From Escherichia phage vB_EcoM_CRP22, in the sequence record OQ708377.1: a stretch of DNA of 64,000 nt; one strand, written 5' to 3'. Both the position numbers and the translations under genes were made by a program. The notes beneath the pieces are model-generated. The model made no database searches, was not told where the DNA came from, and saw only the letters and a program-made list of their open reading frames with translations. Below are positions 13,008 to 64,000 of the stretch, piece by piece; the stretch's first letter is position 1, and each line of letters opens with the position of its first letter.

Positions 13008-15389
13008 ATGGCAGATTACAAGTTGAGTGAATTAAACTCAATCGACACAATCCGTTCAGATGACCTTCTTCATGTCAGGGTTAAAAAGAGACCTGAAATG
13101 CTGGGTGATGAAGACCGTCGAATGACCTATCAAGACTTCTTAGCATCTTTTAAACTTGAAAGATTTGTTCAGATTGCTGGTAGCACCATGACGGGCGACT
13201 TAGGGATTGTTAAGTTACTTTATGGTGGTAAGGCAGTATTTGACCCAACAGGCTCTTCTGAGATTACTATTGGGGATGTTTTAAAGACTTTTAAAATCAA
13301 CGCAAATGGTCTTAAACTAACTATTGCAGACGCTTCAAGGTCGGCAACTGTTTATCATACTCTGAATAAGCCAAGTCCTAATGAGCTTGGGATGAGAACT
13401 AATGAAGAGAATGACGCAAGATACTCAAGATTAACGGCAAATAACATCTTCACCTTCCAGCAAATTATCCAAGCAAATGGTGAAGCTCTTAGGGTAAAAA
13501 ACTCTTCTGAGAACTCACCGTTGTATATCAGAGGTCAGGATAGTGCTGGGAATAATAGGTGGTATGTAGGTAATGGCTCAGGGAGTGATGATGTTACTAT
13601 CTCCAACTACAAGACTGGTTCCTATGTTAATCTTGCTAACGATATTGCTATCAATAAAACACTAAAAATCACTGGTCAAGTTCAACCTTCTGATTTCTCT
13701 AACTTAGATGCTAGATATTTTACTCAGACAGTAGCTAATCAGAGATTTGCACAGTTAGCTGGCAATAATACATTTAGTGGCGTTAATACATTTAACCAAA
13801 TCTTATCGATTCAGACGAATAATGCAGCTTTAAGACTGAAAAGCACTGTAGCAAGTGGTGCGCTATACATTAAAGCTGAAACCAATGATGGTGCTGGCAG
13901 ATGGTATGTAGGTAATGGCGATAATACACCTTCTGTATTAATCCACAACTATACGTATGGCTCTAATCTTAGACTTGATAATGGTTATGTTGAAGTTAAC
14001 AAGCAGCTTAGGGTTGTTGGTCAAATTCAACCTTCTGATTGGACTAACATTGACTCTAGATATATTCCGGCGGGAACTTTGAGTAATCTTGCTAAGTTAA
14101 GTGATGTAAACACTTTTAGGATGGCACAGATTATTAATCAGAATGGCTCATTGTTACAGCTAAAGAACACTACACAAGACAGAGAGCTATACTTTGCTGG
14201 TCATAATGCTGATGGTGTTAGAAGGTGGTACATCGGTAATGGGGAACCATCCAATCCAACAAGACTTACTATCCGCAACGACAGAACTGCAACTACGCTT
14301 TATATGCAAGATGATTTCTTGTTGGATAAAAATGTAAGAATCACTGGTCAAGTTCAACCTTCTGATTTCTCTAACTTAGATGCTAGATATTTCGTAAAAA
14401 CAAAACTGTTAAGCCAATCTTTAATGACAAGGACAGCTAACAGGCTTGAGAGCGCGTCATCATTTAACAAAGATTATTCGGGATTTGTAAGAAACAACGG
14501 TATTGAGCAGGGTCTGAAAGATTTAGCCATCCATGTAGCACATTCTGCTGGTATTGCTCATGCCAGAGGTATTGCTTTTACATATGGGTCTAAAGGTCTT
14601 GATGTCTTCACATATGCTTATGGGTCAGGTGGAACATATGTTGGAGAGGCACAGTTGTATTCAACGGCATTTAAACCAACCCCTTCAGATATTGGTGCAT
14701 ACACTAAAACAGAAACTGACCAGAAAATTGCAACAGCAATTAGTGACTCTACAGACCTTAATAAAATCTATCCAGTAGGTATTGTAACGTGGTTTAACAG
14801 TAATGTTAACCCTAATACAGCACTTCCTGGTCTAACTTGGACATACCTAAACAATGGTGTTGGTAGAACTATCAGAATCGCAGCAGCAAACGGTTCAGAT
14901 GTTGCTACAACTGGTGGTTCAGACTCTGTAACGTTAGCTGTTGGTAACTTACCATCACACACTCACAGTTTCTCTGCTACCACTTCATCTTTTGATTATG
15001 GTACAAAGGGAACTAACAGTACTGGTGGACATACTCACTCTGTAAGTGGTACAACAAGTGCTGCTGGTAACCATGCTCACCACTTAGGTCTGCTATTGGT
15101 TAATGGTGGTGATGCTTTGTACGGATATACAACAGTTGGTAACAGTCTCCCTAGAACGCTTGACTGGCTTGAGAGAAGAGATAACAAGTTCCCTAACACT
15201 AACACAACTGGTAACCATACACACACATGGTCTGGTACTACAAGCGGTGCTGGTGACCATTCCCACTCTGTAGGCATTGGTGCTCACAGCCACACAGTTA
15301 GTGGTAACACTGGTAGTACAGGTTCTGGTTCAGCATTTAGTGTTACTAACCAGTTCTATAAATTAATGGCTTGGGTGAGAACTGCTTAA
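13008..15389 (+). CDS. large tail fibre protein (three ~225-aa tandem shaft repeats, His-rich tip)
   Basis: 793 aa; [18 protein letters not shown] repeated (nt 13672 and 14341) with a third degenerate copy (14010); C-terminal HTHSFS/GxHxH motifs and W-x-RTA end shared with 11774..12961. Confidence 0.7.
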
Positions 15390-15396
15390 TCCCTTA

Positions 15397-15425
15397 TTGA
15401 CTGATTGTTAAGATGGTGTTAATAT
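15397..15425 (+). promoter_or_regulatory. sigma70-like promoter (TTGACT-N17-TAATAT)
   Basis: -35 TTGACT at 15397-15402, 17-nt spacer, -10 TAATAT at 15420-15425; same hexamer pair as promoter at 56507. Confidence 0.5.
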
Positions 15426-15468
15426 TCTTTATGGGTATTCTCACCATCTTGGCTGATGAGGTGATTAA

Positions 15469-15666
15469 ATGCCTACAATCCTAGCAATTCTTCTAAAAAA
15501 TCTAGGTAGCTTCTTCTGGAAACTCATTTTATCCCTTCTAAGTGAATACATGATTGAGAAAGTGTTCTTTAGGCTTGCAAGGTATCTTGCAAGTAAAACA
15601 GACACACCTATTGATGATGAGTTCGTAGATAACTTAGAAAAAGCTTTTAAGGGGGAGAATAAATGA
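15469..15666 (+). CDS. small membrane protein (holin-like candidate)
   Basis: 65 aa, hydrophobic N-terminal segment (ILAILLKNLGSFFWKLILSLL), after promoter. Confidence 0.3.
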   Translation: MPTILAILLKNLGSFFWKLILSLLSEYMIEKVFFRLARYLASKTDTPIDDEFVDNLEKAFKGENK

Positions 15667-57642: not shown

Positions 57643-57730
57643 GAGTACTTTACAGGGGGCTTAAAAGCTGATATCTTAAGCCCCAGATAAAGAGCTTTAC
57701 TACTCAATCCTTAAACTAGGAGATTCAAAA
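57643..57730 (+). promoter_or_regulatory. intergenic module A copy 3
   Basis: Near-identical to copy 1. Confidence 0.5.
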
Positions 57731-58243
57731 ATGAAAACTGTAGACGCTACCTTTGAAGTTGTAAAAGAAAAATTTTCCATCATTTACGAAGCTGTCAATT
57801 GCTACGAAGCAAGCCATAATCTTGATAATTGGAAGTTTACAGATGACCATCAAGGCGGTGTGACTATTAAAAACCCCAACTGTCAGCGTAATGGATTTAA
57901 ATATGCAATTCCTTTACATTACAGCCTTAAACAGCTTTCAATTGACTATGCAAAACAAGGCCGGGAAAATCCATCGAAAGAGGCTTACATCAGCTTACAG
58001 AAAGAACTAGAAAGAGATTTAGAGGCTTCAGAATATAACATCGCCGCGAAAGTTGTAGATGCAAACGGTAGCACGGTTTTAGAGAGTTTTTATATTGGTT
58101 ATGCTTTCGATTGGTGCTACAGTGACGGCGATGATTTAGATGACAGACTAAAAGAGGAAGTGAACAACGCAGACGCAGAATCTGAAGTATTAGAACGCTT
58201 GGAAGCATTAAAAGATTCAGTGATGAATATCTTTAAGAACTAA
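57731..58243 (+). CDS. early-region acidic protein
   Basis: 170 aa, follows module A. Confidence 0.4.
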   Translation: MKTVDATFEVVKEKFSIIYEAVNCYEASHNLDNWKFTDDHQGGVTIKNPNCQRNGFKYAIPLHYSLKQLSIDYAKQGRENPSKEAYISLQKELERDLEASEYNIAAKVVDANGSTVLESFYIGYAFDWCYSDGDDLDDRLKEEVNNADAESEVLERLEALKDSVMNIFKN

Positions 58244-58246
58244 ATA

Positions 58247-58330
58247 GATTTCTTTACACGGGGCTAACAAGCGGATATGATAGCCCCAGATAAAGAGATT
58301 TATCAACTGTCCTAAACTGGAGATTCAAAA
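58247..58330 (+). promoter_or_regulatory. intergenic module A copy 4 (diverged)
   Basis: TTTACA-N17-TATGAT; hairpin arms ggggcta/tagcccc; leader ...cctaaactggagattcaaaa. Confidence 0.45.
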
Positions 58331-58627
58331 ATGAAACTATCAAATAAAGTTAGGGAAAACCTTAGTAAATTACTCAACAAAATTGATTTTATCGAGACCT
58401 CAAGAAATACTCATGAGGTGATGGAATGGTTACACGGCAAAATAAAAGGCCGTCGTGTAGTGATTTGCTTATGGAACAGTTGCAGGGAATATAAAAAACC
58501 TGTATTACAAGTTAATATTTATGATGATACTTTTAAAAGTCCTGTAAAGTCTAAAAGCGATTTATTAGAATCCTATGAGATAACTGTAAATGGCAAAGTA
58601 TCACGTAAAGAGGAAACACCATGTTAA
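58331..58627 (+). CDS. early-region protein
   Basis: 98 aa. Confidence 0.4.
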   Translation: MKLSNKVRENLSKLLNKIDFIETSRNTHEVMEWLHGKIKGRRVVICLWNSCREYKKPVLQVNIYDDTFKSPVKSKSDLLESYEITVNGKVSRKEETPC

Positions 58628-58953
58628 TGATTGGTATCACTGCAACCGTTGCCATTTTCGCGCTATATAAGGCGTATAAGGCCTATAATCTAGCAAATAA
58701 GGCAATCACACAGCAGGTTAGCAATAACTTGGTAGAGAGCTTTCTAGGACGCCTCAGTGATGAGCAAATAAAGCGGCTAGAGATGAGCTTCAGATATAAA
58801 GCGAAAACCTATCAGATAAGTGACATCTTCAAAGATGATTTTCAGCTTGTCGATGATTATAACTCTCTGATAAATGCTTTAAATGTCAGTGACTTAAAAG
58901 ACTATTACGCTGTAATTGTTCAAGAATTGAGCAAACGAAAAAATTCCTCTTGA
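58621..58953 (+). CDS. early-region membrane protein
   Basis: 110 aa; N-terminal hydrophobic helix (MLMIGITATVAIFALY); start overlaps previous stop. Confidence 0.4.
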   Translation: MLMIGITATVAIFALYKAYKAYNLANKAITQQVSNNLVESFLGRLSDEQIKRLEMSFRYKAKTYQISDIFKDDFQLVDDYNSLINALNVSDLKDYYAVIVQELSKRKNSS

Positions 58954-59039
58954 TTTTGGTTTTTAAAACAAGTAAATTACTAATCAACGGGAGGGATAAC
59001 CTCCTACTAAATAAAGTCCTTAAACTAGGAGATTATAAA
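58941..59039 (+). repeat. intergenic module B copy 1 (GTAAATTACTAATCAACGG + GGGAGG/CCTCC hairpin + conserved leader)
   Basis: tcttgattttggtttttaaaacaagtaaattactaatcaacgggagggataacctcctactaaataaagtccttaaactaggagattataaa. Confidence 0.5.
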
Positions 59040-59312
59040 ATGTATACTACTAACAACGGTCGCACTTTAAACGTAACCCTACGTCACTATGTAAACGGTG
59101 TGATGTGCTTTGATGATTTACAAGCTGAGCAACATATCTTGGATTGGCAACTTGCAGGACTCCAAAAAACTGCTACCGGATACGGGAAAAAGATTCCAAC
59201 TAGCTGGAAAGTCCACTACAAAGGACGTTTGCGCAGAATTTATCAGGATATATGTAGCAATAGCGCATCAAGTTACATCATGGTAAAAGGTAAAAAATTA
59301 CACTTAGTATAA
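59040..59312 (+). CDS. early-region protein
   Basis: 90 aa starting MYTTNNGRTL at the conserved ATG after module B; ORF-track N-terminal extension is a translated repeat. Confidence 0.4.
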   Translation: MYTTNNGRTLNVTLRHYVNGVMCFDDLQAEQHILDWQLAGLQKTATGYGKKIPTSWKVHYKGRLRRIYQDICSNSASSYIMVKGKKLHLV

Positions 59313-59398
59313 AGTACTTTACAAGGGGCTTATAGTTCGATAAAGTAAGCCCCAGATAAAGAGCTTTACTAACTAAATCCTAAATTGGAGATTCAAAA
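59312..59398 (+). promoter_or_regulatory. intergenic module A copy 5
   Basis: TTTACA-N17-TAAAGT; same hairpin variant as copy 2. Confidence 0.5.
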
Positions 59399-59803
59399 AT
59401 GGCTATTAATAACCGTGAGTTATCAATCTTAAAAGCACGTTTGACCGTTAACCGGATTAATGTTATCACGTCATCAGCACCGGATGAAACACTTCAAAAC
59501 ATTATTAGGAAGATTCAAAGTGTTATCTTAGACGTTGAAAGCGTAAAAAACTCATTGGCTGACGTTGCAGCAGGTATCACGCTAGACGGTGCACAATATG
59601 AAATGGTTGACATGTTAGGCAAATCTAAAGTAATGAATAAAGAGTTAGATTTGAAAATGTTCCGTTTTGCTGTTAAGGTGTGGCTATCCATCGAATATGA
59701 CGCAAATTTTGCAATCGCTGACTTTTTCGCAACATGGTTACAACGTAATTTAACAAATTATGATTTTCGTGATATCTGCGATGCAATTTACGCAGAACTT
59801 TAA
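59399..59803 (+). CDS. early-region protein
   Basis: 134 aa. Confidence 0.4.
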   Translation: MAINNRELSILKARLTVNRINVITSSAPDETLQNIIRKIQSVILDVESVKNSLADVAAGITLDGAQYEMVDMLGKSKVMNKELDLKMFRFAVKVWLSIEYDANFAIADFFATWLQRNLTNYDFRDICDAIYAEL

Positions 59804-59908
59804 AAATTTCTCTTGATTTTGGTTTTTAAAACAAGTAAATTACTAATCAACGGGGAGGGAATGACCTTTCCCCCACTAAGTAAAGTCCTTAAACTAGGAG
59901 ATTCGAAA
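59804..59908 (+). repeat. intergenic module B copy 2
   Basis: tctcttgattttggtttttaaaacaagtaaattactaatcaacggggagggaatgacctttccccc...ccttaaactaggagattcgaaa. Confidence 0.5.
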
Positions 59909-60112
59909 ATGGCTATTATTAATGGTTTAAACATTGAAACTACTCACATCAAAGATATTAAAGTCGGCGATATAGTCCTTTTTCACGGCGTAGAAAAAAC
60001 CGTCACTGAAAAGGATATCAAAGAGGATTCATTCATGGGTCGGTCGCTCTTCGGTGATTCCTATTGCTTAGGTTACCGTGCAGTTTTAAAAGTTGTCAAA
60101 AATAATCGTTAA
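59909..60112 (+). CDS. early-region protein
   Basis: 67 aa starting MAIINGLNIE at the conserved ATG. Confidence 0.4.
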   Translation: MAIINGLNIETTHIKDIKVGDIVLFHGVEKTVTEKDIKEDSFMGRSLFGDSYCLGYRAVLKVVKNNR

Positions 60113-60123
60113 AGTACTTTACA

Positions 60124-60198
60124 AGGGGCTTAAAAGTTGATATCTTAAGCCCCAGATAAAGAGCTTTACCACTAAATCCTAAACTGGAGATTCAAAAA
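60124..60198 (+). promoter_or_regulatory. intergenic module A copy 6
   Basis: TTTACA-N17-TATCTT; hairpin ggggcttaa/ttaagcccc. Confidence 0.5.
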
Positions 60199-60765
60199 AT
60201 GAAATGCTATCACGGCACTACTCTGAAAAACTTTGTAAACCTGCTTAAAGGTGGCGACAAGCCGGAAGGTATCTGGAACTGCTCTTACATGGATGATTGT
60301 TTTTACGTTTACCCGATGGATAAGATTATCAAGACGGAATGCCTGGAAGATGAAGAAGACCCTTACATCCGTGAACGCTGCATTCAAAACGCTTTAGAGT
60401 CGGGGCTTATTACGGCAGCTTTCCAAATGGAAACGCAGGAAGTGATTGTAATTGAGATGGATATCCCAGAGGAAGAGCTTGAGGATGATTATTCTTGTGA
60501 CAACATGAGCGAAATCGCCAGCTTTACCGGTTACTTTGATAAAGATTGGATTATCGGTATTCACTCGACGAAATTTAGTGCAATGTATGCGCCATTCTTT
60601 GTTCCTGATACAACTAACCATAATTTGGGCTATATTGACGATGATTTGTTGAGTATTGCAAAAATTGTACAGAATAGCGGGGAGACTTCTTCTGTGTTTT
60701 GTGACCTGCTGGATAAAATTACCGAGAATCTCACAGAGCGCAATCTAAGCGACTTTTTAGACTAA
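60199..60765 (+). CDS. early-region protein with ADP-ribosyltransferase-like (H-G-T) N-terminal motif
   Basis: 188 aa; MKCYHGTTLKNFVNLLKGGDKP resembles the YHGT NAD-binding strand-helix of diphtheria-toxin-class ARTs and Tpt1/KptA (recalled); aromatic-rich SYMDDCFYVY; acidic stretches. Confidence 0.35.
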   Translation: MKCYHGTTLKNFVNLLKGGDKPEGIWNCSYMDDCFYVYPMDKIIKTECLEDEEDPYIRERCIQNALESGLITAAFQMETQEVIVIEMDIPEEELEDDYSCDNMSEIASFTGYFDKDWIIGIHSTKFSAMYAPFFVPDTTNHNLGYIDDDLLSIAKIVQNSGETSSVFCDLLDKITENLTERNLSDFLD

Positions 60766-60794
60766 GCAGTACAAAGACACTAATTTCCAACTTA

Positions 60795-60815
60795 AGGCCC
60801 ATACAGGGCCATTTA
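60795..60815 (+). terminator. hairpin terminator-like element
   Basis: ggcccatacagggcc followed by ATTT. Confidence 0.4.
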
Positions 60816-60828
60816 GAGGGCTTAAATC

Positions 60829-61062
60829 ATGCTTACAACCGTTTATCTCATCCTTTCTATTTGTAACGGTCATTCATGTGATTTTAAAGGGCTTGAGGAG
60901 TTTACAGGAAGTAAAGAAAATGCTATTCAGGTTTGCCAGATAGCAAGGCAAGACTATCCCGCCAGTGATGATATACAATGCTACTTCAAAACAGAAGATA
61001 ACGACGGCGTCTATTTTGATAGTGTCGATGGTCAATATGAAATTATCATTGAAAAAGACTAG
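60829..61062 (+). CDS. early-region small protein with N-terminal hydrophobic segment
   Basis: 77 aa; MLTTVYLILSICNGHSC... Confidence 0.35.
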   Translation: MLTTVYLILSICNGHSCDFKGLEEFTGSKENAIQVCQIARQDYPASDDIQCYFKTEDNDGVYFDSVDGQYEIIIEKD

Positions 61063-61078
61063 ACAAGCCTGATAAAAG

Positions 61079-61153
61079 TCTGTAAATTACTAATCAACGG
61101 GGAGGTAATGACCTTCCCCACTAAATAAAGTCCTTAAACTAGGAGATTCTAAA
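61079..61153 (+). repeat. intergenic module B copy 3
   Basis: tgtaaattactaatcaacggggaggtaatgaccttccccactaaataaagtccttaaactaggagattctaaa. Confidence 0.5.
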
Positions 61154-61402
61154 ATGTATACTAAAACTCAACTAAAAAACATGGTTAGCAATGGCTTAAT
61201 GGATGAAGTCTATAAAGAGTGTAGACGATATGGAGAAATCAAAGGTAAAACAAGCTATGAATACACCCACACAATAAACTTTAAAACTAATGAGCAAAAA
61301 ACCGACTTAATAACTAGCATTATAATTGAGTATAAAGGTATAATATGGTCCTTTGAGCTAGTGAAAGGTGAGTGCATAGAAATCGAATACAAAGACGCTT
61401 AA
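61154..61402 (+). CDS. early-region protein
   Basis: 82 aa. Confidence 0.4.
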   Translation: MYTKTQLKNMVSNGLMDEVYKECRRYGEIKGKTSYEYTHTINFKTNEQKTDLITSIIIEYKGIIWSFELVKGECIEIEYKDA

Positions 61403-61488
61403 AAGTACTTTACAAGGGGCTTAAAAGTTGATATCTTAAGCCCCAGATAAAGAGCTTTACCACTAAATCCTAAACTGGAGATTCAAAA
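61403..61488 (+). promoter_or_regulatory. intergenic module A copy 7
   Basis: Identical core to copy 6. Confidence 0.5.
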
Positions 61489-61830
61489 ATGGCTTATGTA
61501 ACCGTAATTACTGATAAAGCTGGCTCATCTTGGTCAACTCAAGTAAGTGATAAGATGTCACCTATGCAGTGCCTAAAATACTTTGAGCAGTGGAACAAAG
61601 GCGAGGATGTCAGCCCCTTTCAAGTGATGCAAATCATCCATACAGATAACGAAGGAAACAAAACGACACTTAATAGTGAGTATTACACAAATCGTTTTGA
61701 GAGTCGAGTTGAAACGATGAAGGGGCTGCGTGAGGCCGGATATGGGCACATTGCCGCCTTGTTATGGGATGACCTGCTAAAAAGTCAGCGTATCAGCTAC
61801 ATAAAACCTGAAAAAATATTCATCAGTTAA
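61489..61830 (+). CDS. early-region protein
   Basis: 113 aa. Confidence 0.4.
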   Translation: MAYVTVITDKAGSSWSTQVSDKMSPMQCLKYFEQWNKGEDVSPFQVMQIIHTDNEGNKTTLNSEYYTNRFESRVETMKGLREAGYGHIAALLWDDLLKSQRISYIKPEKIFIS

Positions 61831-61977
61831 TCAATAACTTACAAAAAACTTTTAAAAAAGTGTTGACAATCCCTATTGACATTGGTAACTTTGTTCGAGG
61901 GGGCTTATCTTAAAGGGATTCACTTAAAAGGTTCTTTATAGATAAGCTCAAAAAATTACTTGCAATCAGATATCAAA

Positions 61978-62051
61978 ACAAGTAAATTACTAATCAACGG
62001 GGAGGGATTAACCTTCCCCACTAAACAAAGTCCTAAACTGGAGATTCAAAA
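61978..62051 (+). repeat. intergenic module B copy 4
   Basis: acaagtaaattactaatcaacggggagggattaaccttccccactaaacaaagtcctaaactggagattcaaaa. Confidence 0.5.
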
Positions 62052-62582
62052 ATGAACAAGTTCAAAGCTATCAACTTCATTCGTTCAAATAGTGTCATGT
62101 CAAAGCCTGTTAAAGATACCTATGAATTTCGTTGTAATGGTGTACATTTTGCAACAATCACCAAATCAGAAAACGGGGCTTATTACGTCCATCGTCGTAA
62201 TGTTGCAACCGTTGCAGTCTCTCACTTTATGCAAGCTGTAGCGGAATTATTACCGTTATTCTTAGAGATTTATCTAGATGATTGTAAAAACGTTCACAGA
62301 CACGTTAAAAACCTTTTAAACGGTTATAGAATGGCTTATGAACGTTCTATCAAGTCCTTAAACAAGTTCTATAAAGCCCCTGTAAATACCGTTTCAATGG
62401 CCTATGGCGTAGGTGGCTGGACTGTTAACCTTTCTCTAGTGGAAGAAATCGAGCTTTATGATTTACGCCCTGATGGATACTCTAAGACACTGGGAGAGGG
62501 CTTATCTTTCAATATCAAGAACTTAGAGAAAACTTTAAAAGATATTGAAAAAGATATTGACGAGACAACCAAAAATCTGTAA
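62052..62582 (+). CDS. early-region protein
   Basis: 176 aa; stop codon TAA forms the start of the next module B core (cTGTAAATTAC). Confidence 0.4.
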   Translation: MNKFKAINFIRSNSVMSKPVKDTYEFRCNGVHFATITKSENGAYYVHRRNVATVAVSHFMQAVAELLPLFLEIYLDDCKNVHRHVKNLLNGYRMAYERSIKSLNKFYKAPVNTVSMAYGVGGWTVNLSLVEEIELYDLRPDGYSKTLGEGLSFNIKNLEKTLKDIEKDIDETTKNL

Positions 62583-62651
62583 ATTACTAATCAACGGGGA
62601 GGGGATGACCTTCCCCACTAAGTAAAGTCCTTAAACTAGGAGATTCAAAAA
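62577..62651 (+). repeat. intergenic module B copy 5
   Basis: ctgtaaattactaatcaacggggaggggatgaccttccccactaagtaaagtccttaaactaggagattcaaaaa. Confidence 0.5.
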
Positions 62652-62900
62652 ATGGCAACTATCCGCGCAATTGTAAATTCTTATGGCTGCTACACTCTGG
62701 ACGTTAAATTTGATATTGGTGGGACTGATGAGTGTTTCGAACTGGTGAAGACAGTCATTAAACAAGTTATCCCAGACTATAACCCCACTGATGACTTCTG
62801 GAAAGATGCCGTAAAAGAGGCGTTGAACGATGAATATCATTACCATTACTGGGGTGACTTGATTGTCTCCCTATACTACAGCAAACAAGGTTACAACTAA
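62652..62900 (+). CDS. early-region protein
   Basis: 82 aa; last gene before the 1.1 kb non-coding region. Confidence 0.4.
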   Translation: MATIRAIVNSYGCYTLDVKFDIGGTDECFELVKTVIKQVIPDYNPTDDFWKDAVKEALNDEYHYHYWGDLIVSLYYSKQGYN

Positions 62901-62936
62901 TCGACGCAACGGGGCTAAATAGCCCCAGATACCTTC

Positions 62937-62990
62937 AAAGCCCCTTTATATTGATTCGATAGAATCTATCTCATAGGGGCTTTTTTATGT
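62937..62990. terminator. long hairpin (AAAGCCCC...GGGGCTTT) enclosing palindrome GATAGAATCTATC, followed by T-run
   Basis: 8-bp GC-rich stem arms at 62937-62944 and 62976-62983; TTTTTTAT after; palindrome at about 62958-62970 with a second degenerate copy at about 63038-63050. Confidence 0.45.
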
Positions 62991-63329
62991 CTTATCAAAT
63001 CCTTTCCCTTTCCAGAATCTATCCCACTAATTCGATAGAACCTATCTCATACCTTAAAAGGCAATAACTCTATAGCTTACTCTATAGCCCCTTATCAAAT
63101 CAACTTAAATATAAGCCCATAACCCCAGAAAGGGGATGGCCTCTTATTGGTATTGTTACCAATCCCCTAAAACGCTCTATAAAGCTCTATAACAGCCTTA
63201 TCAACCTAACTTAAGGGATTGCATTAACTCACCTTAAAAAGCTCTTTACAGGGCTTTATAGAGGCTTAAAAGAATCTTATAAGGTTATAAGCTTTATTAT
63301 CTCGTTAGCTATCTTGTGAACTACTAAAA

Positions 63330-64000
63330 AGGGGCTTGTTAGTGTCTTAAAAGTATGTTATAGGGGCTATAAAGTTACTTCAAAGTTACGTAAAAGAAGC
63401 TATAAAGTTACGTAAATGCTAGCCCCCTTAACATCTTCTTAACAAATTCTTAACAATACCTACATAGTTATGCTTGTTAGAGACTTGTTAGCCCCTTGTT
63501 AAATCTCTGTTAAAACCACGTAAAAGCTTTGTAAGAGTCTTTGACATAGCCTTAAAAGCTCCTGTAAAGCCTTATAAATAGGTGTCTGTATAGTTGGGGT
63601 GTAATTACTAGGAAGAGGTTTAAAAGAGCTTACAAGGAGCTATAGAGAGCTTTTAAAAGGGCTATTTAGAGAATCACTAAGAGGGAAAGGGAACGATAAG
63701 AAAGAGATAGTGACCATGTTAATAGCTTGTTAAAAAGATTAAACACTTGTTAGGAACTTGTTAATTATCTTAACAAAATAACTCTTAAAAATTAACTTGT
63801 TAGCTCTTGTTAGTCATCCGTTAAGACGCTGTAAAGCCCATGTAGCAACTGTTAAGAACTTGTTACAGCCTTGTTAGTTCTGTTAAGAGTCTGTTAAGAC
63901 CTCTGAAGAGATGTTAAGAGGATGTAATAGCTGTTAAGAGATTGTTAAGGATATTTTAAAATTCTGCAAAGGGGATGTTACAGGGATGTTAAGGGCTACC
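63330..64000. repeat. dense array of short (C/T)TGTTA(A/G) motifs in ORF-free DNA
   Basis: More than 20 copies, e.g. 63850, 63860, 63871, 63880, 63890 spaced about 10 bp apart; no ORF of 60 aa or more on either strand from 62901 to window end. Confidence 0.6.

What the first reader, a model, noticed from the sequence alone, without database searches (positions are those of the whole stretch)
63330..64000. ORF-free 1.1 kb region ending in a helically phased array of TGTTAAG/TTGTTAG motifs
From about 62901 to the window end no ORF of 60 aa or more exists on either strand. The last roughly 670 bp contain more than 20 copies of (C/T)TGTTA(A/G), and in the densest stretch (63850-63990) successive copies are spaced about 9 to 11 bp apart, that is, on one face of the helix. 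Such phased short-motif arrays are typical of sites where a protein polymerises on DNA: terminase small-subunit pac sites, replication-origin iterons, partition or nucleoid-protein loading sites. The region may also mark a genome terminus or terminal repeat. The flanking DNA (63170-63460) has further short repeats (CTATAAAG, AAGTTACGTAAA x2).
Basis: seen in the sequence. Interest (0 to 1): 0.6.

Follow-up and report, generated by a model that had tools for sequence, protein, structure and literature searches.

The report
Phage terminal repeat with phased motifs
The region is the right-hand end of a Felix O1-like phage chromosome: its roughly 580-bp direct terminal repeat, already known for this phage group, turns out to be built from conserved TGTTA(A/G) motifs set one DNA turn apart, which most likely guide the enzymes that cut and package the genome.

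Summary
In 63330-64000 the TGTTA core occurs 22 times on the + strand, against 1.9 +/- 1.35 in dinucleotide shuffles. Spacing is mostly 11 bp, and the copies stay in phase at 10.4 bp over the whole repeat. Exact YTGTTAR occurs only 16 times (19 counting both strands), not more than 20.

The window is a Felixounavirus (Felix O1-like myovirus), and it ends exactly at the physical right end of the chromosome. Positions 63422-64000 are the short direct terminal repeat (DTR). In phage ZX4221 the first and last 591 bp are identical and align to these coordinates. Seven records start at the base aligned to 63422, and one of them annotates that stretch as the terminal repeat. Published DTRs for the genus are 581-613 bp.

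The internal architecture appears undescribed and is under selection. Motif cores are 97% conserved against 83% for spacers. There are 19-22 copies per DTR in all 15 genomes aligned, and the same TGTTAAG arrays occur in Erwinia Kolesnikviruses.

The best reading is a cis-acting platform for the machinery that recognises and cuts the concatemer junction, comparable to the heptamer arrays at T7 ends. The binding protein is unidentified.

It is a new example of a known kind, of modest interest.

The parts
62939..62986 (+). Intrinsic terminator closing the rightward gene block. The stem is AGCCCC...GGGGCT followed by a T run. In this phage the loop is enlarged by a 23-bp mini-insertion.
   Evidence: Read from the sequence. 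The homologous hairpin without the insert is called a terminator in PK6. The alignment shows the insert only in the window, Bas63 and ZX4221.
62901..63421 (.). Sub-terminal unique right-end DNA (U_R). It is non-coding. From about 63170 it is tiled by 10-11-bp units of the CT(N)TA(A/T)A(A/G) type, such as CTATAAAG, CTTAAAAG and ACGTAAAAG.
   Evidence: No ORFs. Autocorrelation peaks at lags 10, 11, 22 and 32-33. K-mer counts. Conserved in 15 genomes.
63422..64000 (+). Right-hand copy of the direct terminal repeat (579 bp). The window ends at the physical right terminus, ...GGGCTACC.
   Evidence: The first 591 bp of ZX4221 are 100% identical to its last 591 bp and align to 63422-64000. Records D4, I14.1, E9, H12, ECP2307, ZX4221 and Pr103Blw start at the base aligned to 63422, and Pr103Blw annotates 1-581 as the short direct terminal repeat.
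63427..63456 (-). Three inverted motif units (CTTAACA, which reads TGTTAAG on the - strand) at 11-bp spacing, starting 6 nt inside the left DTR boundary.
   Evidence: The number of units varies between genomes, in whole 11-bp steps: 3 in most, 4 in heid, 5 in Si3.
63474..63513 (+). Four forward TTGTTAG/TTGTTAA units at exactly 11-bp spacing, pointing away from the inverted triplet.
   Evidence: The copy number is 2-5 in relatives.
63717..63995 (+). Main forward array: 16 exact TGTTA cores plus degenerate units (CGTTAAG, TGTAAAG, CTGAAG, TGTAATA), mostly 9-11 bp apart.
   Evidence: Motif-core columns are 97% conserved against 83% for spacers.
63758..63776 (.). Dyad-symmetric site TTGTTAA-TTATC-TTAACAA, a perfect 7-nt inverted repeat of the motif.
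   Evidence: The site is invariant in the 12 genomes displayed, apart from one spacer base in ESh22.
63146..63163 (.). Imperfect palindromic mini-insertion ATTGGTATTGTTACCAAT. It is present or absent at different places within the junction region in different genomes.

Best explanation
The finding covers the right end of the linear chromosome of a Felix O1-like myovirus. Positions 63422-64000 are one copy of the roughly 580-bp exact direct terminal repeat (DTR). Positions 62901-63421 are non-coding sub-terminal DNA.

In replicating concatemers a single DTR copy sits in a 1.6-1.7-kb region with no annotated conserved genes. That region lies between two convergent gene blocks, each of which ends in a terminator.

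The DTR and the DNA just beyond it are built from TGTTA(A/G) heptamers. In the window's DTR there are 20 forward and 4 inverted copies. They lie on one face of the helix.

Inferred mechanism: these units are recognition sites on which a phage-encoded DNA-binding protein oligomerises. The protein would be a small-terminase-like or accessory packaging factor. The oligomer marks the concatemer junction and positions the terminase at the two invariant boundaries, ...TGCTA|GCCCCCTTAACAT on the left and ...GGGCTACC|AAGCAGATATAC on the right. The repeat is then duplicated so that each packaged chromosome carries it at both ends, as in T7-type DTR phages.

What is shown: the identity and boundaries of the DTR, the statistical reality of the array and its phasing, and purifying selection on the motif cores.

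What is inferred: that a protein binds the units, and that the process served is packaging or end formation.
For: Identity of the region as the DTR
- The window is 85-90% identical to 114 Felixounavirus records over the last 2 kb.
- The two ends of ZX4221 are identical over 591 bp and map to 63422-64000.
- Seven independent records start at the same base, and four end at the base aligned to 64000.
- GenBank MW481326 annotates 1-581 as the short direct terminal repeat.
- The DTR was measured experimentally in UAB_Phi87 (608 bp, Bal31 digestion plus run-off sequencing, PMC4837284) and by PhageTerm in Ro111lw (613 bp, PMC6454146) and Pr103Blw (581 bp, PMC8303462).

Reality of the array
- Enrichment z is about 15 and phasing is at 10.4 bp.

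Selection on the motif
- Core columns are 97% identical against 83-85% for spacers (Mann-Whitney p about 1e-11). Against Mooglevirus alone the figures are 95% and 72%.
- All 15 genomes keep 19-22 TGTTA per DTR, although DTR length ranges from 569 to 633 bp and copy number changes in whole 11-bp units.
- DTR DNA is 77-80% identical to Mooglevirus, while the neighbouring 176-aa protein is only 42-49% identical.
- Kolesnikvirus, whose similarity to Mooglevirus DTRs is limited to about 130 bp near the right end, has the same layout: 14 TGTTA and 7 TAACA in its roughly 440-bp DTR, and the same AAGCAGATATAC just outside the right cut.

Context
- The region is bracketed by convergent terminators. It has no promoter signal above shuffles and no Rfam match.

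Precedent
- The T7 left end carries CCTAAAG/ATAAAG heptamer arrays next to its terminal repeat.
- The mechanism of one repeat copy per concatemer junction followed by re-synthesis is described in PMC10438801.
Against: - No binding protein is identified. No small terminase is annotated in Felix O1-like phages (PMC4837284; Bas63 annotation).
- PHROGs and Pfam give no DNA-binding or terminase call for the genes next to terL or next to the DTR.
- The left end of this particular genome lies outside the window, so the repeat is inferred for this phage by homology only.
- The resemblance between the two DTR boundaries (CCCTTAACATC at 6 and 8 nt from the cuts) is not seen in Kolesnikvirus, so a symmetric nicking model is weak.
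- Conservation and phasing would serve any DNA-binding function equally well, for example replication, end protection or control of DNA ejection.
Confidence: 0.6

Rival explanations
1. The arrays are iterons of a replication origin, or an end-replication element. A phage or host initiator would polymerise on them and melt the adjacent A+T-rich stretches.
For: - The units are phased direct repeats on one helical face.
- Conserved A+T-rich blocks lie next to them: GATATTTTAAAATTCTG inside the DTR and CTATTTTATAAAAATTTTAA about 60-80 bp beyond the right cut.
- The origin of these phages is unknown.
Against: - The units are 7-nt cores in 11-bp repeats and number more than 20. Classical iterons are about 17-22 bp and few (my own knowledge).
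- No initiator-like gene is adjacent.
- Cumulative GC skew simply follows gene orientation.
- The arrays coincide exactly with the terminal repeat and its cut sites.
Confidence: 0.15
2. The arrays bind a protein that acts on the chromosome ends after packaging or at entry. Possible roles are end protection against host exonucleases, anchoring of the leading end in the capsid or tail, or pausing of DNA ejection, like the repeat-rich injection-stop region of T5.
For: - The motifs sit at both virion DNA ends, and each end reads the same inward for about 20 nt.
- The region is non-coding and lacks convincing promoters.
- T5 has a repeat-rich non-coding region in its terminal repeat (my own knowledge).
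Against: - No two-step DNA transfer and no end-binding protein is reported for Felix O1-like phages in the papers read.
- The motifs continue for about 500 bp into unique left-end DNA only. That asymmetry fits a junction-recognition role better.
Confidence: 0.1
3. The arrays are regulatory sites for transcription. A repressor or silencer would coat the zone between the convergent gene blocks, or a host response regulator of the OmpR/PhoB type would bind the 10-11-bp direct repeats.
For: - The 11-bp head-to-tail repeats with a 7-nt core resemble the architecture of Pho boxes (CTGTCAT at 11-bp spacing; my own knowledge).
- The region lies between two transcription units.
Against: - Promoter-like sites are no more frequent than in shuffles (11 against 7.0 +/- 2.8), and none scores above 9 of 12.
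- Both flanking gene blocks terminate before the arrays.
- The motif does not cluster in any other intergenic region of the 64-kb window.
Confidence: 0.07
4. The repeats are functionless satellite DNA made by replication slippage in a dispensable terminal region.
For: Copy number changes by whole 11-bp units between genomes. Two small insertions come and go in the region.
Against: - Cores are much better conserved than spacers.
- The motif number is held at 19-22 across two genera.
- The same motif is kept in Kolesnikvirus, where the rest of the sequence has diverged.
- The DTR is better conserved than the neighbouring protein gene.
Confidence: 0.03

Closest known systems
Short exact direct terminal repeats of Felix O1-like phages (UAB_Phi87 608 bp, Ro111lw 613 bp, Pr103Blw 581 bp)
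   Same: It is the same element. It is homologous in sequence, with boundaries at the same bases, a length of 579 bp, and the same position between the convergent gene blocks (PMC4837284, PMC6454146, PMC8303462).
   Different: Nothing differs in kind. The papers read report only the length of the repeat. None of them describes its internal motif arrays.
Heptamer arrays at the ends of phage T7 DNA (CCTAAAG series beside the 160-bp terminal repeat)
   Same: Both are short arrays of a 7-nt motif, in one orientation, inside and beside the terminal repeat of a DTR phage. In T7 the end region contains cis elements needed for fitness.
   Different: There is no sequence similarity. T7 units are 13 bp apart and so are not helically phased, whereas these are 9-11 bp apart and coherent at 10.4 bp. 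The host phage here is an 88-kb myovirus with no recognised small terminase.
pac-site boxes bound by the small terminase of SPP1-like phages, and lambda cosB R sites
   Same: Both are repeated short boxes, about one helical turn apart, on which a terminase recognition subunit oligomerises. This comparison rests on my own knowledge and is a functional analogy only.
   Different: Those systems give headful-permuted or cohesive ends, have only a few boxes, and have a known small-terminase gene. Here the ends are exact direct repeats, there are more than 20 units, and no such gene is recognised.
Replication-origin iterons of plasmids and lambdoid phages
   Same: Both are phased direct repeats next to A+T-rich DNA.
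   Different: Here the units are much shorter and far more numerous, no initiator gene is adjacent, and the arrays coincide with the chromosome ends.

Membership tests
Felixounavirus short direct terminal repeat (DTR) | The same sequence is present at both ends of the virion chromosome. | tested here: inconclusive
   The feature is met in relatives. ZX4221 has identical 591-bp ends, and D4, I14.1, E9, ECP2307 and Pr103Blw carry two copies each. The left end of this phage is outside the window, so for this genome the feature rests on homology.
Felixounavirus short direct terminal repeat (DTR) | The boundaries coincide with mapped physical termini. | tested here: met
   Window 63422 and 64000 align to base 1 and base 581 of the annotated terminal repeat of Pr103Blw, and to the record ends of at least 7 other genomes. 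Termini in the genus were mapped by Bal31 digestion with run-off sequencing and by PhageTerm (PMC4837284, PMC6454146, PMC8303462).
Felixounavirus short direct terminal repeat (DTR) | A single copy lies at the concatemer junction, in non-coding DNA between the right-end and left-end genes. | tested here: met
   Records opened elsewhere (PK6, Bas63, Felix O1, fjerdesal) hold one copy inside a 1.6-1.7-kb gene-free junction.
Headful pac site bound by a small terminase | The ends are circularly permuted and terminally redundant, produced by headful cutting. | tested here: not met
   The ends are exact and fall at the same base in many independent records. The literature reports non-permuted DTRs (PMC4837284, PMC6454146).
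Headful pac site bound by a small terminase | A recognisable small-terminase gene is present, usually next to terL. | tested here: not met
   No such annotation exists in Bas63. The 66-aa gene upstream of terL and its neighbours fall into PHROGs of unknown function. 'Only a large terminase was identified' (PMC4837284).
Replication-origin iterons | There are a few repeats of about 17-22 bp, with an adjacent initiator gene and a DNA-unwinding element. | tested here: inconclusive
   Repeat size and number do not fit: the core is 7 nt in an 11-bp unit and there are more than 20 copies. No initiator-like gene is adjacent. A+T-rich conserved blocks are present. Origin activity cannot be tested with these tools.
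T7-type terminal heptamer arrays | An array of a short motif, in one orientation, lies within or beside the terminal repeat of a DTR phage. | tested here: met
   The window has 20 forward TGTTA in the DTR, and the arrays continue beyond the right cut in relatives. The T7 array was verified at 175-340. This is a resemblance in kind, not homology.

The most novel reading that the evidence does not exclude
The TGTTAAG arrays are the loading track for an unrecognised end-recognition protein, a functional small terminase in a phage subfamily where none is known. The protein would polymerise head-to-tail once per helical turn along more than 150 bp. A second, genus-specific array lies on the other side of the left cut: CT(N)TAAAG-type units in Felixounavirus and TTCTAA in Kolesnikvirus. 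It would be read by a second, faster-evolving specificity. Together they would define a two-track junction-recognition system for making exact terminal repeats.
Probability: 0.3. Interest if true: 0.55.

Novelty: new member of a known kind. Interest (0 to 1): 0.33.

Why it matters
Felix O1-like phages are widely used for Salmonella and E. coli typing, biocontrol and therapy, and they are now being rebuilt from PCR fragments in cell-free systems. How they recognise and cut their chromosome ends is unknown, and no small terminase has been found.

This analysis gives engineers exact boundaries to preserve. It also gives experimenters a defined DNA bait for fishing out the missing recognition protein: a conserved, helically phased TGTTAAG array with invariant cut-site contexts.

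For genome annotation, it shows that this "odd non-coding repeat region" is simply the terminal repeat. Records opened elsewhere should be re-oriented accordingly.

Tried and rejected
- Rfam scan of the whole junction in PK6 at E up to 1: only two sub-threshold chance hits. A structured RNA is rejected.
- Promoter scan: 11 weak sites against 7.0 +/- 2.8 in shuffles, and none above 9 of 12. A promoter cluster is rejected.
- Single-strand DNA folding of the DTR: z = -1.15. There is no special hairpin structure.
- Search for the binding protein. PHROGs was run on the Bas63 genes beside terL and beside the DTR, and Pfam on the five window genes upstream of the region. All came back as unknown function or no hit. 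terL itself lies outside the window, since the window starts about 7.5 kb into Bas63 coordinates.
- PhageMaP supplement for Bas63: it holds gene-level data only, with no insertions scored in the junction.
- Cumulative GC skew on the complete Bas63 genome: it tracks gene orientation and says nothing about an origin.
- Full-text search for the motif and for descriptions of the repeat's internal structure: nothing relevant was found.
- Symmetric-nicking idea. The two DTR boundaries share (TA)GCCC..TTAACATC on the strand that would be nicked. The offsets differ by 2 nt, and the symmetry is absent in Kolesnikvirus. It is kept only as a speculation.
- The weak TAACA cluster at 14751-15500 is chance and shows no phasing.

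Full report
**What is in the sequence**

The last gene on the + strand ends at 62900. No ORF of 30 aa or more lies wholly within 62901-64000 on either strand.

In 63330-64000 the pentamer TGTTA occurs 22 times on the + strand and TAACA 4 times. The window-wide density is 1.8 per kb. In 2000 dinucleotide-preserving shuffles of the segment the mean is 1.88, the sd 1.35 and the maximum 8, giving z of about 15.

'More than 20 copies' is therefore true only for the core or for near-variants.

The commonest spacing is 11 bp, with occasional 9 or 10, and 20 bp where a degenerate unit intervenes. Sequence autocorrelation of 63422-64000 peaks at lag 11 (z=9.8), with further peaks at 22, 31 and 42. Coding controls show only 3-bp periodicity. 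Over the whole 566 bp the forward copies keep phase at 10.4 bp (R=0.78, Rayleigh p about 5e-6; the period was picked after the fact from about 60 tried).

The motif consensus is (C)(T)TGTTA(A)(G)(A). No comparable array exists elsewhere in the window.

**What the region is**

The last 2 kb match 256 phage records. In 114 of them the match covers at least 80% of the query; the best match per record is 80-90% identical in 188 records and 60-80% in the other 68. Nearly all are Felix O1-like myoviruses (Felixounavirus). Four of these records start or end at the base aligned to window position 64000.

In Escherichia phage ZX4221 the first 591 bp are 100% identical to the last 591 bp, and this repeat aligns to window 63422-64000. 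Records D4, I14.1, E9, H12, ECP2307, ZX4221 and Pr103Blw all begin at the base aligned to 63422. GenBank MW481326 (Pr103Blw) annotates 1-581 as 'short direct terminal repeat region'.

The literature agrees:
- A 608-bp repeat was found in UAB_Phi87 by Bal31 digestion and run-off sequencing (PMC4837284).
- PhageTerm gave 613 bp in Ro111lw (PMC6454146).
- PhageTerm gave 581 bp in Pr103Blw (PMC8303462).
- 'Short terminal repeats' were inferred for Felix O1 itself (PMC3185647).

The window therefore ends exactly at the physical right end of the chromosome. Positions 63422-64000 are the right-hand copy of the direct terminal repeat (DTR). Positions 62901-63421 are unique sub-terminal DNA. The left end of this genome is outside the window, so for this particular phage the repeat is inferred by homology.

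**Context**

In records opened elsewhere, a single DTR copy lies in a gene-free junction of 1.6-1.7 kb between convergent gene blocks. Small genes of unknown function run rightwards and stop at 62900. Leftward genes, which further on include the endolysin, stop about 600 bp beyond the right cut. Both blocks end in intrinsic terminators.

The junction has no promoter signal above shuffles, no Rfam match and no unusual single-strand structure.

**Anatomy of the repeat**

- It starts 6 nt before three inverted units (CTTAACA, 63427-63456).
- Four forward units follow (63474-63513).
- A middle part carries related units such as ACGTAAAAG, CTTAAAAG and CTGTAAAG, plus a purine-rich block.
- The main forward array runs from 63717 to 63995.
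- Inside that array is a perfect dyad, TTGTTAA-TTATC-TTAACAA (63758-63776).
- The repeat ends ...ATGTTAAGGGCTACC.

In relatives the TGTTAG/TGTTAAG units continue for about 500 bp into the unique left-end DNA, with 3-9 copies. That DNA is beyond the window. The sub-terminal DNA on the other side (63170-63421) is tiled by a different family of 10-11-bp units.

**Evidence of function**

I aligned the junction from 15 genomes of Felixounavirus and Mooglevirus.
- Columns in TGTTA/TAACA cores are 97% identical to the window, against 83-85% for other DTR columns (p about 1e-11). Against Mooglevirus alone the figures are 95% and 72%.
- Every genome keeps 19-22 TGTTA per DTR, although DTR length ranges from 569 to 633 bp.
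- The arrays gain or lose whole 11-bp units.
- The two cut contexts are conserved...TGCTA|GCCCCCTTAACAT is invariant within Felixounavirus (Mooglevirus mostly has GTTA|GCCCCCTTTACAT), and ...GGGCTACC|AAGCAGATATAC is identical in all 15 genomes.
- The DTR is 77-80% identical to Mooglevirus at the DNA level. The adjacent 176-aa protein is only 42-49% identical.

The Erwinia and Hafnia Kolesnikviruses add to this. Their detectable DNA similarity to Mooglevirus DTRs is limited to about 130 bp near the right end. They nevertheless have the same layout:
- a roughly 440-bp repeat whose ends are fixed by record boundaries;
- 14 TGTTA and 7 TAACA inside it;
- GTTAAG units beyond the right cut;
- the same AAGCAGATATAC just outside the cut;
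- a different motif, TTCTAA (12 copies), in the sub-terminal DNA on the other side.

A motif that survives while the surrounding sequence diverges is a recognition element, not slippage debris.

**Most likely mechanism**

In DTR phages each concatemer junction holds one copy of the repeat. The terminase cuts at specific sites and the repeat is re-synthesised so that both ends carry it (PMC10438801).

I infer that the phased units recruit and align an oligomer of a phage DNA-binding protein. That oligomer would mark the junction and place the nuclease at the two invariant boundaries. The step from 'conserved phased motif' to 'protein platform' is a strong inference. The step to 'packaging' is weaker, and I put it at about even odds.

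The closest precedent is T7. I verified that its left end carries CCTAAAG/ATAAAG heptamers in and beside its terminal repeat, although at 13-bp spacing. Insertions near the end of the T7 left repeat are deleterious.

The binding protein remains unknown. No small terminase is annotated in this group (PMC4837284), and profile searches of candidate neighbours gave nothing.

**Rivals**

- Origin iterons remain possible, because there are A+T-rich conserved blocks and the origin is unknown. Against this, the size and number of the units, the lack of an initiator gene, and the exact coincidence with the ends all argue otherwise.
- An end-protection or ejection-control role, and transcriptional silencing, cannot be excluded.
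- Functionless satellite DNA is effectively excluded by the conservation data.

**Verdict**

The 'protein polymerises here' idea is supported indirectly.

The terminal repeat itself is already known for the genus. Its helically phased, subfamily-wide motif architecture appears undescribed in the literature I could search. It belongs to a known kind of feature. Interest is modest.

Noticed in passing
window 63146-63163; also PK6 L003 5144, VpaE1 L009 1773 (inverted), heid L016 1941: An imperfect palindrome of about 24 bp (TTAATTGGTATTGTTACCAATCCC) is present or absent at three different positions of the junction region in different genomes: in the sub-terminal DNA here and in PK6 and ZX4221, and inside the terminal repeat in VpaE1 and heid. 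It behaves like a tiny mobile insertion or a recombination footprint. It occurs only once in the 64-kb window.
   Followed up: partly
window 62953-62975 and 63029-63051; also VpaE1 L009 2153, Mordin L011 2644, ESh22 L018 2670 (all inverted): A second mini-element, GATTCGATAGAATCTATCTCATA, occurs twice here, once inside the loop of the terminator hairpin. It sits at other junction positions in other genomes: just past the right cut in VpaE1, and inside the opposite terminator loop in Mordin and ESh22. Its origin is unexplained.
   Followed up: partly
window 63170-63421; Erwinia phage Panisse L023 4740-5240: The sub-terminal DNA left of the repeat carries its own 10-11-bp phased array, but the motif is genus-specific: CT(N)TA(A/T)A(A/G)-type units here and TTCTAA (12 copies) in Kolesnikvirus. 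The TGTTAAG motif of the repeat, by contrast, is shared by all three genera. This suggests two separate binding specificities.
   Followed up: partly
window 62911-62926: A perfect hairpin GGGGCT-AAAT-AGCCCC, with no T run after it, follows the last gene directly and is conserved in most relatives. It lies upstream of the true terminator hairpin, and its role is unknown.
   Followed up: no
PK6 L003 6040-6100 (beyond the window end): A block about 50-90 bp past the right cut is nearly invariant across Felixounavirus and Mooglevirus and is very A+T-rich (CTATTTTATAAAAATTTTAA...CTGAATAA). It could be a DNA-unwinding element, a bend or a binding site.
   Followed up: no
window 57700-62900: The right-end genes are small ORFs separated by roughly 60-220-bp spacers, and they have no Pfam or PHROG function. 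The 176-aa protein at 62052-62582 diverges very fast: it is 42-49% identical to Mooglevirus, while the adjacent non-coding repeat is 77-80% identical.
   Followed up: partly
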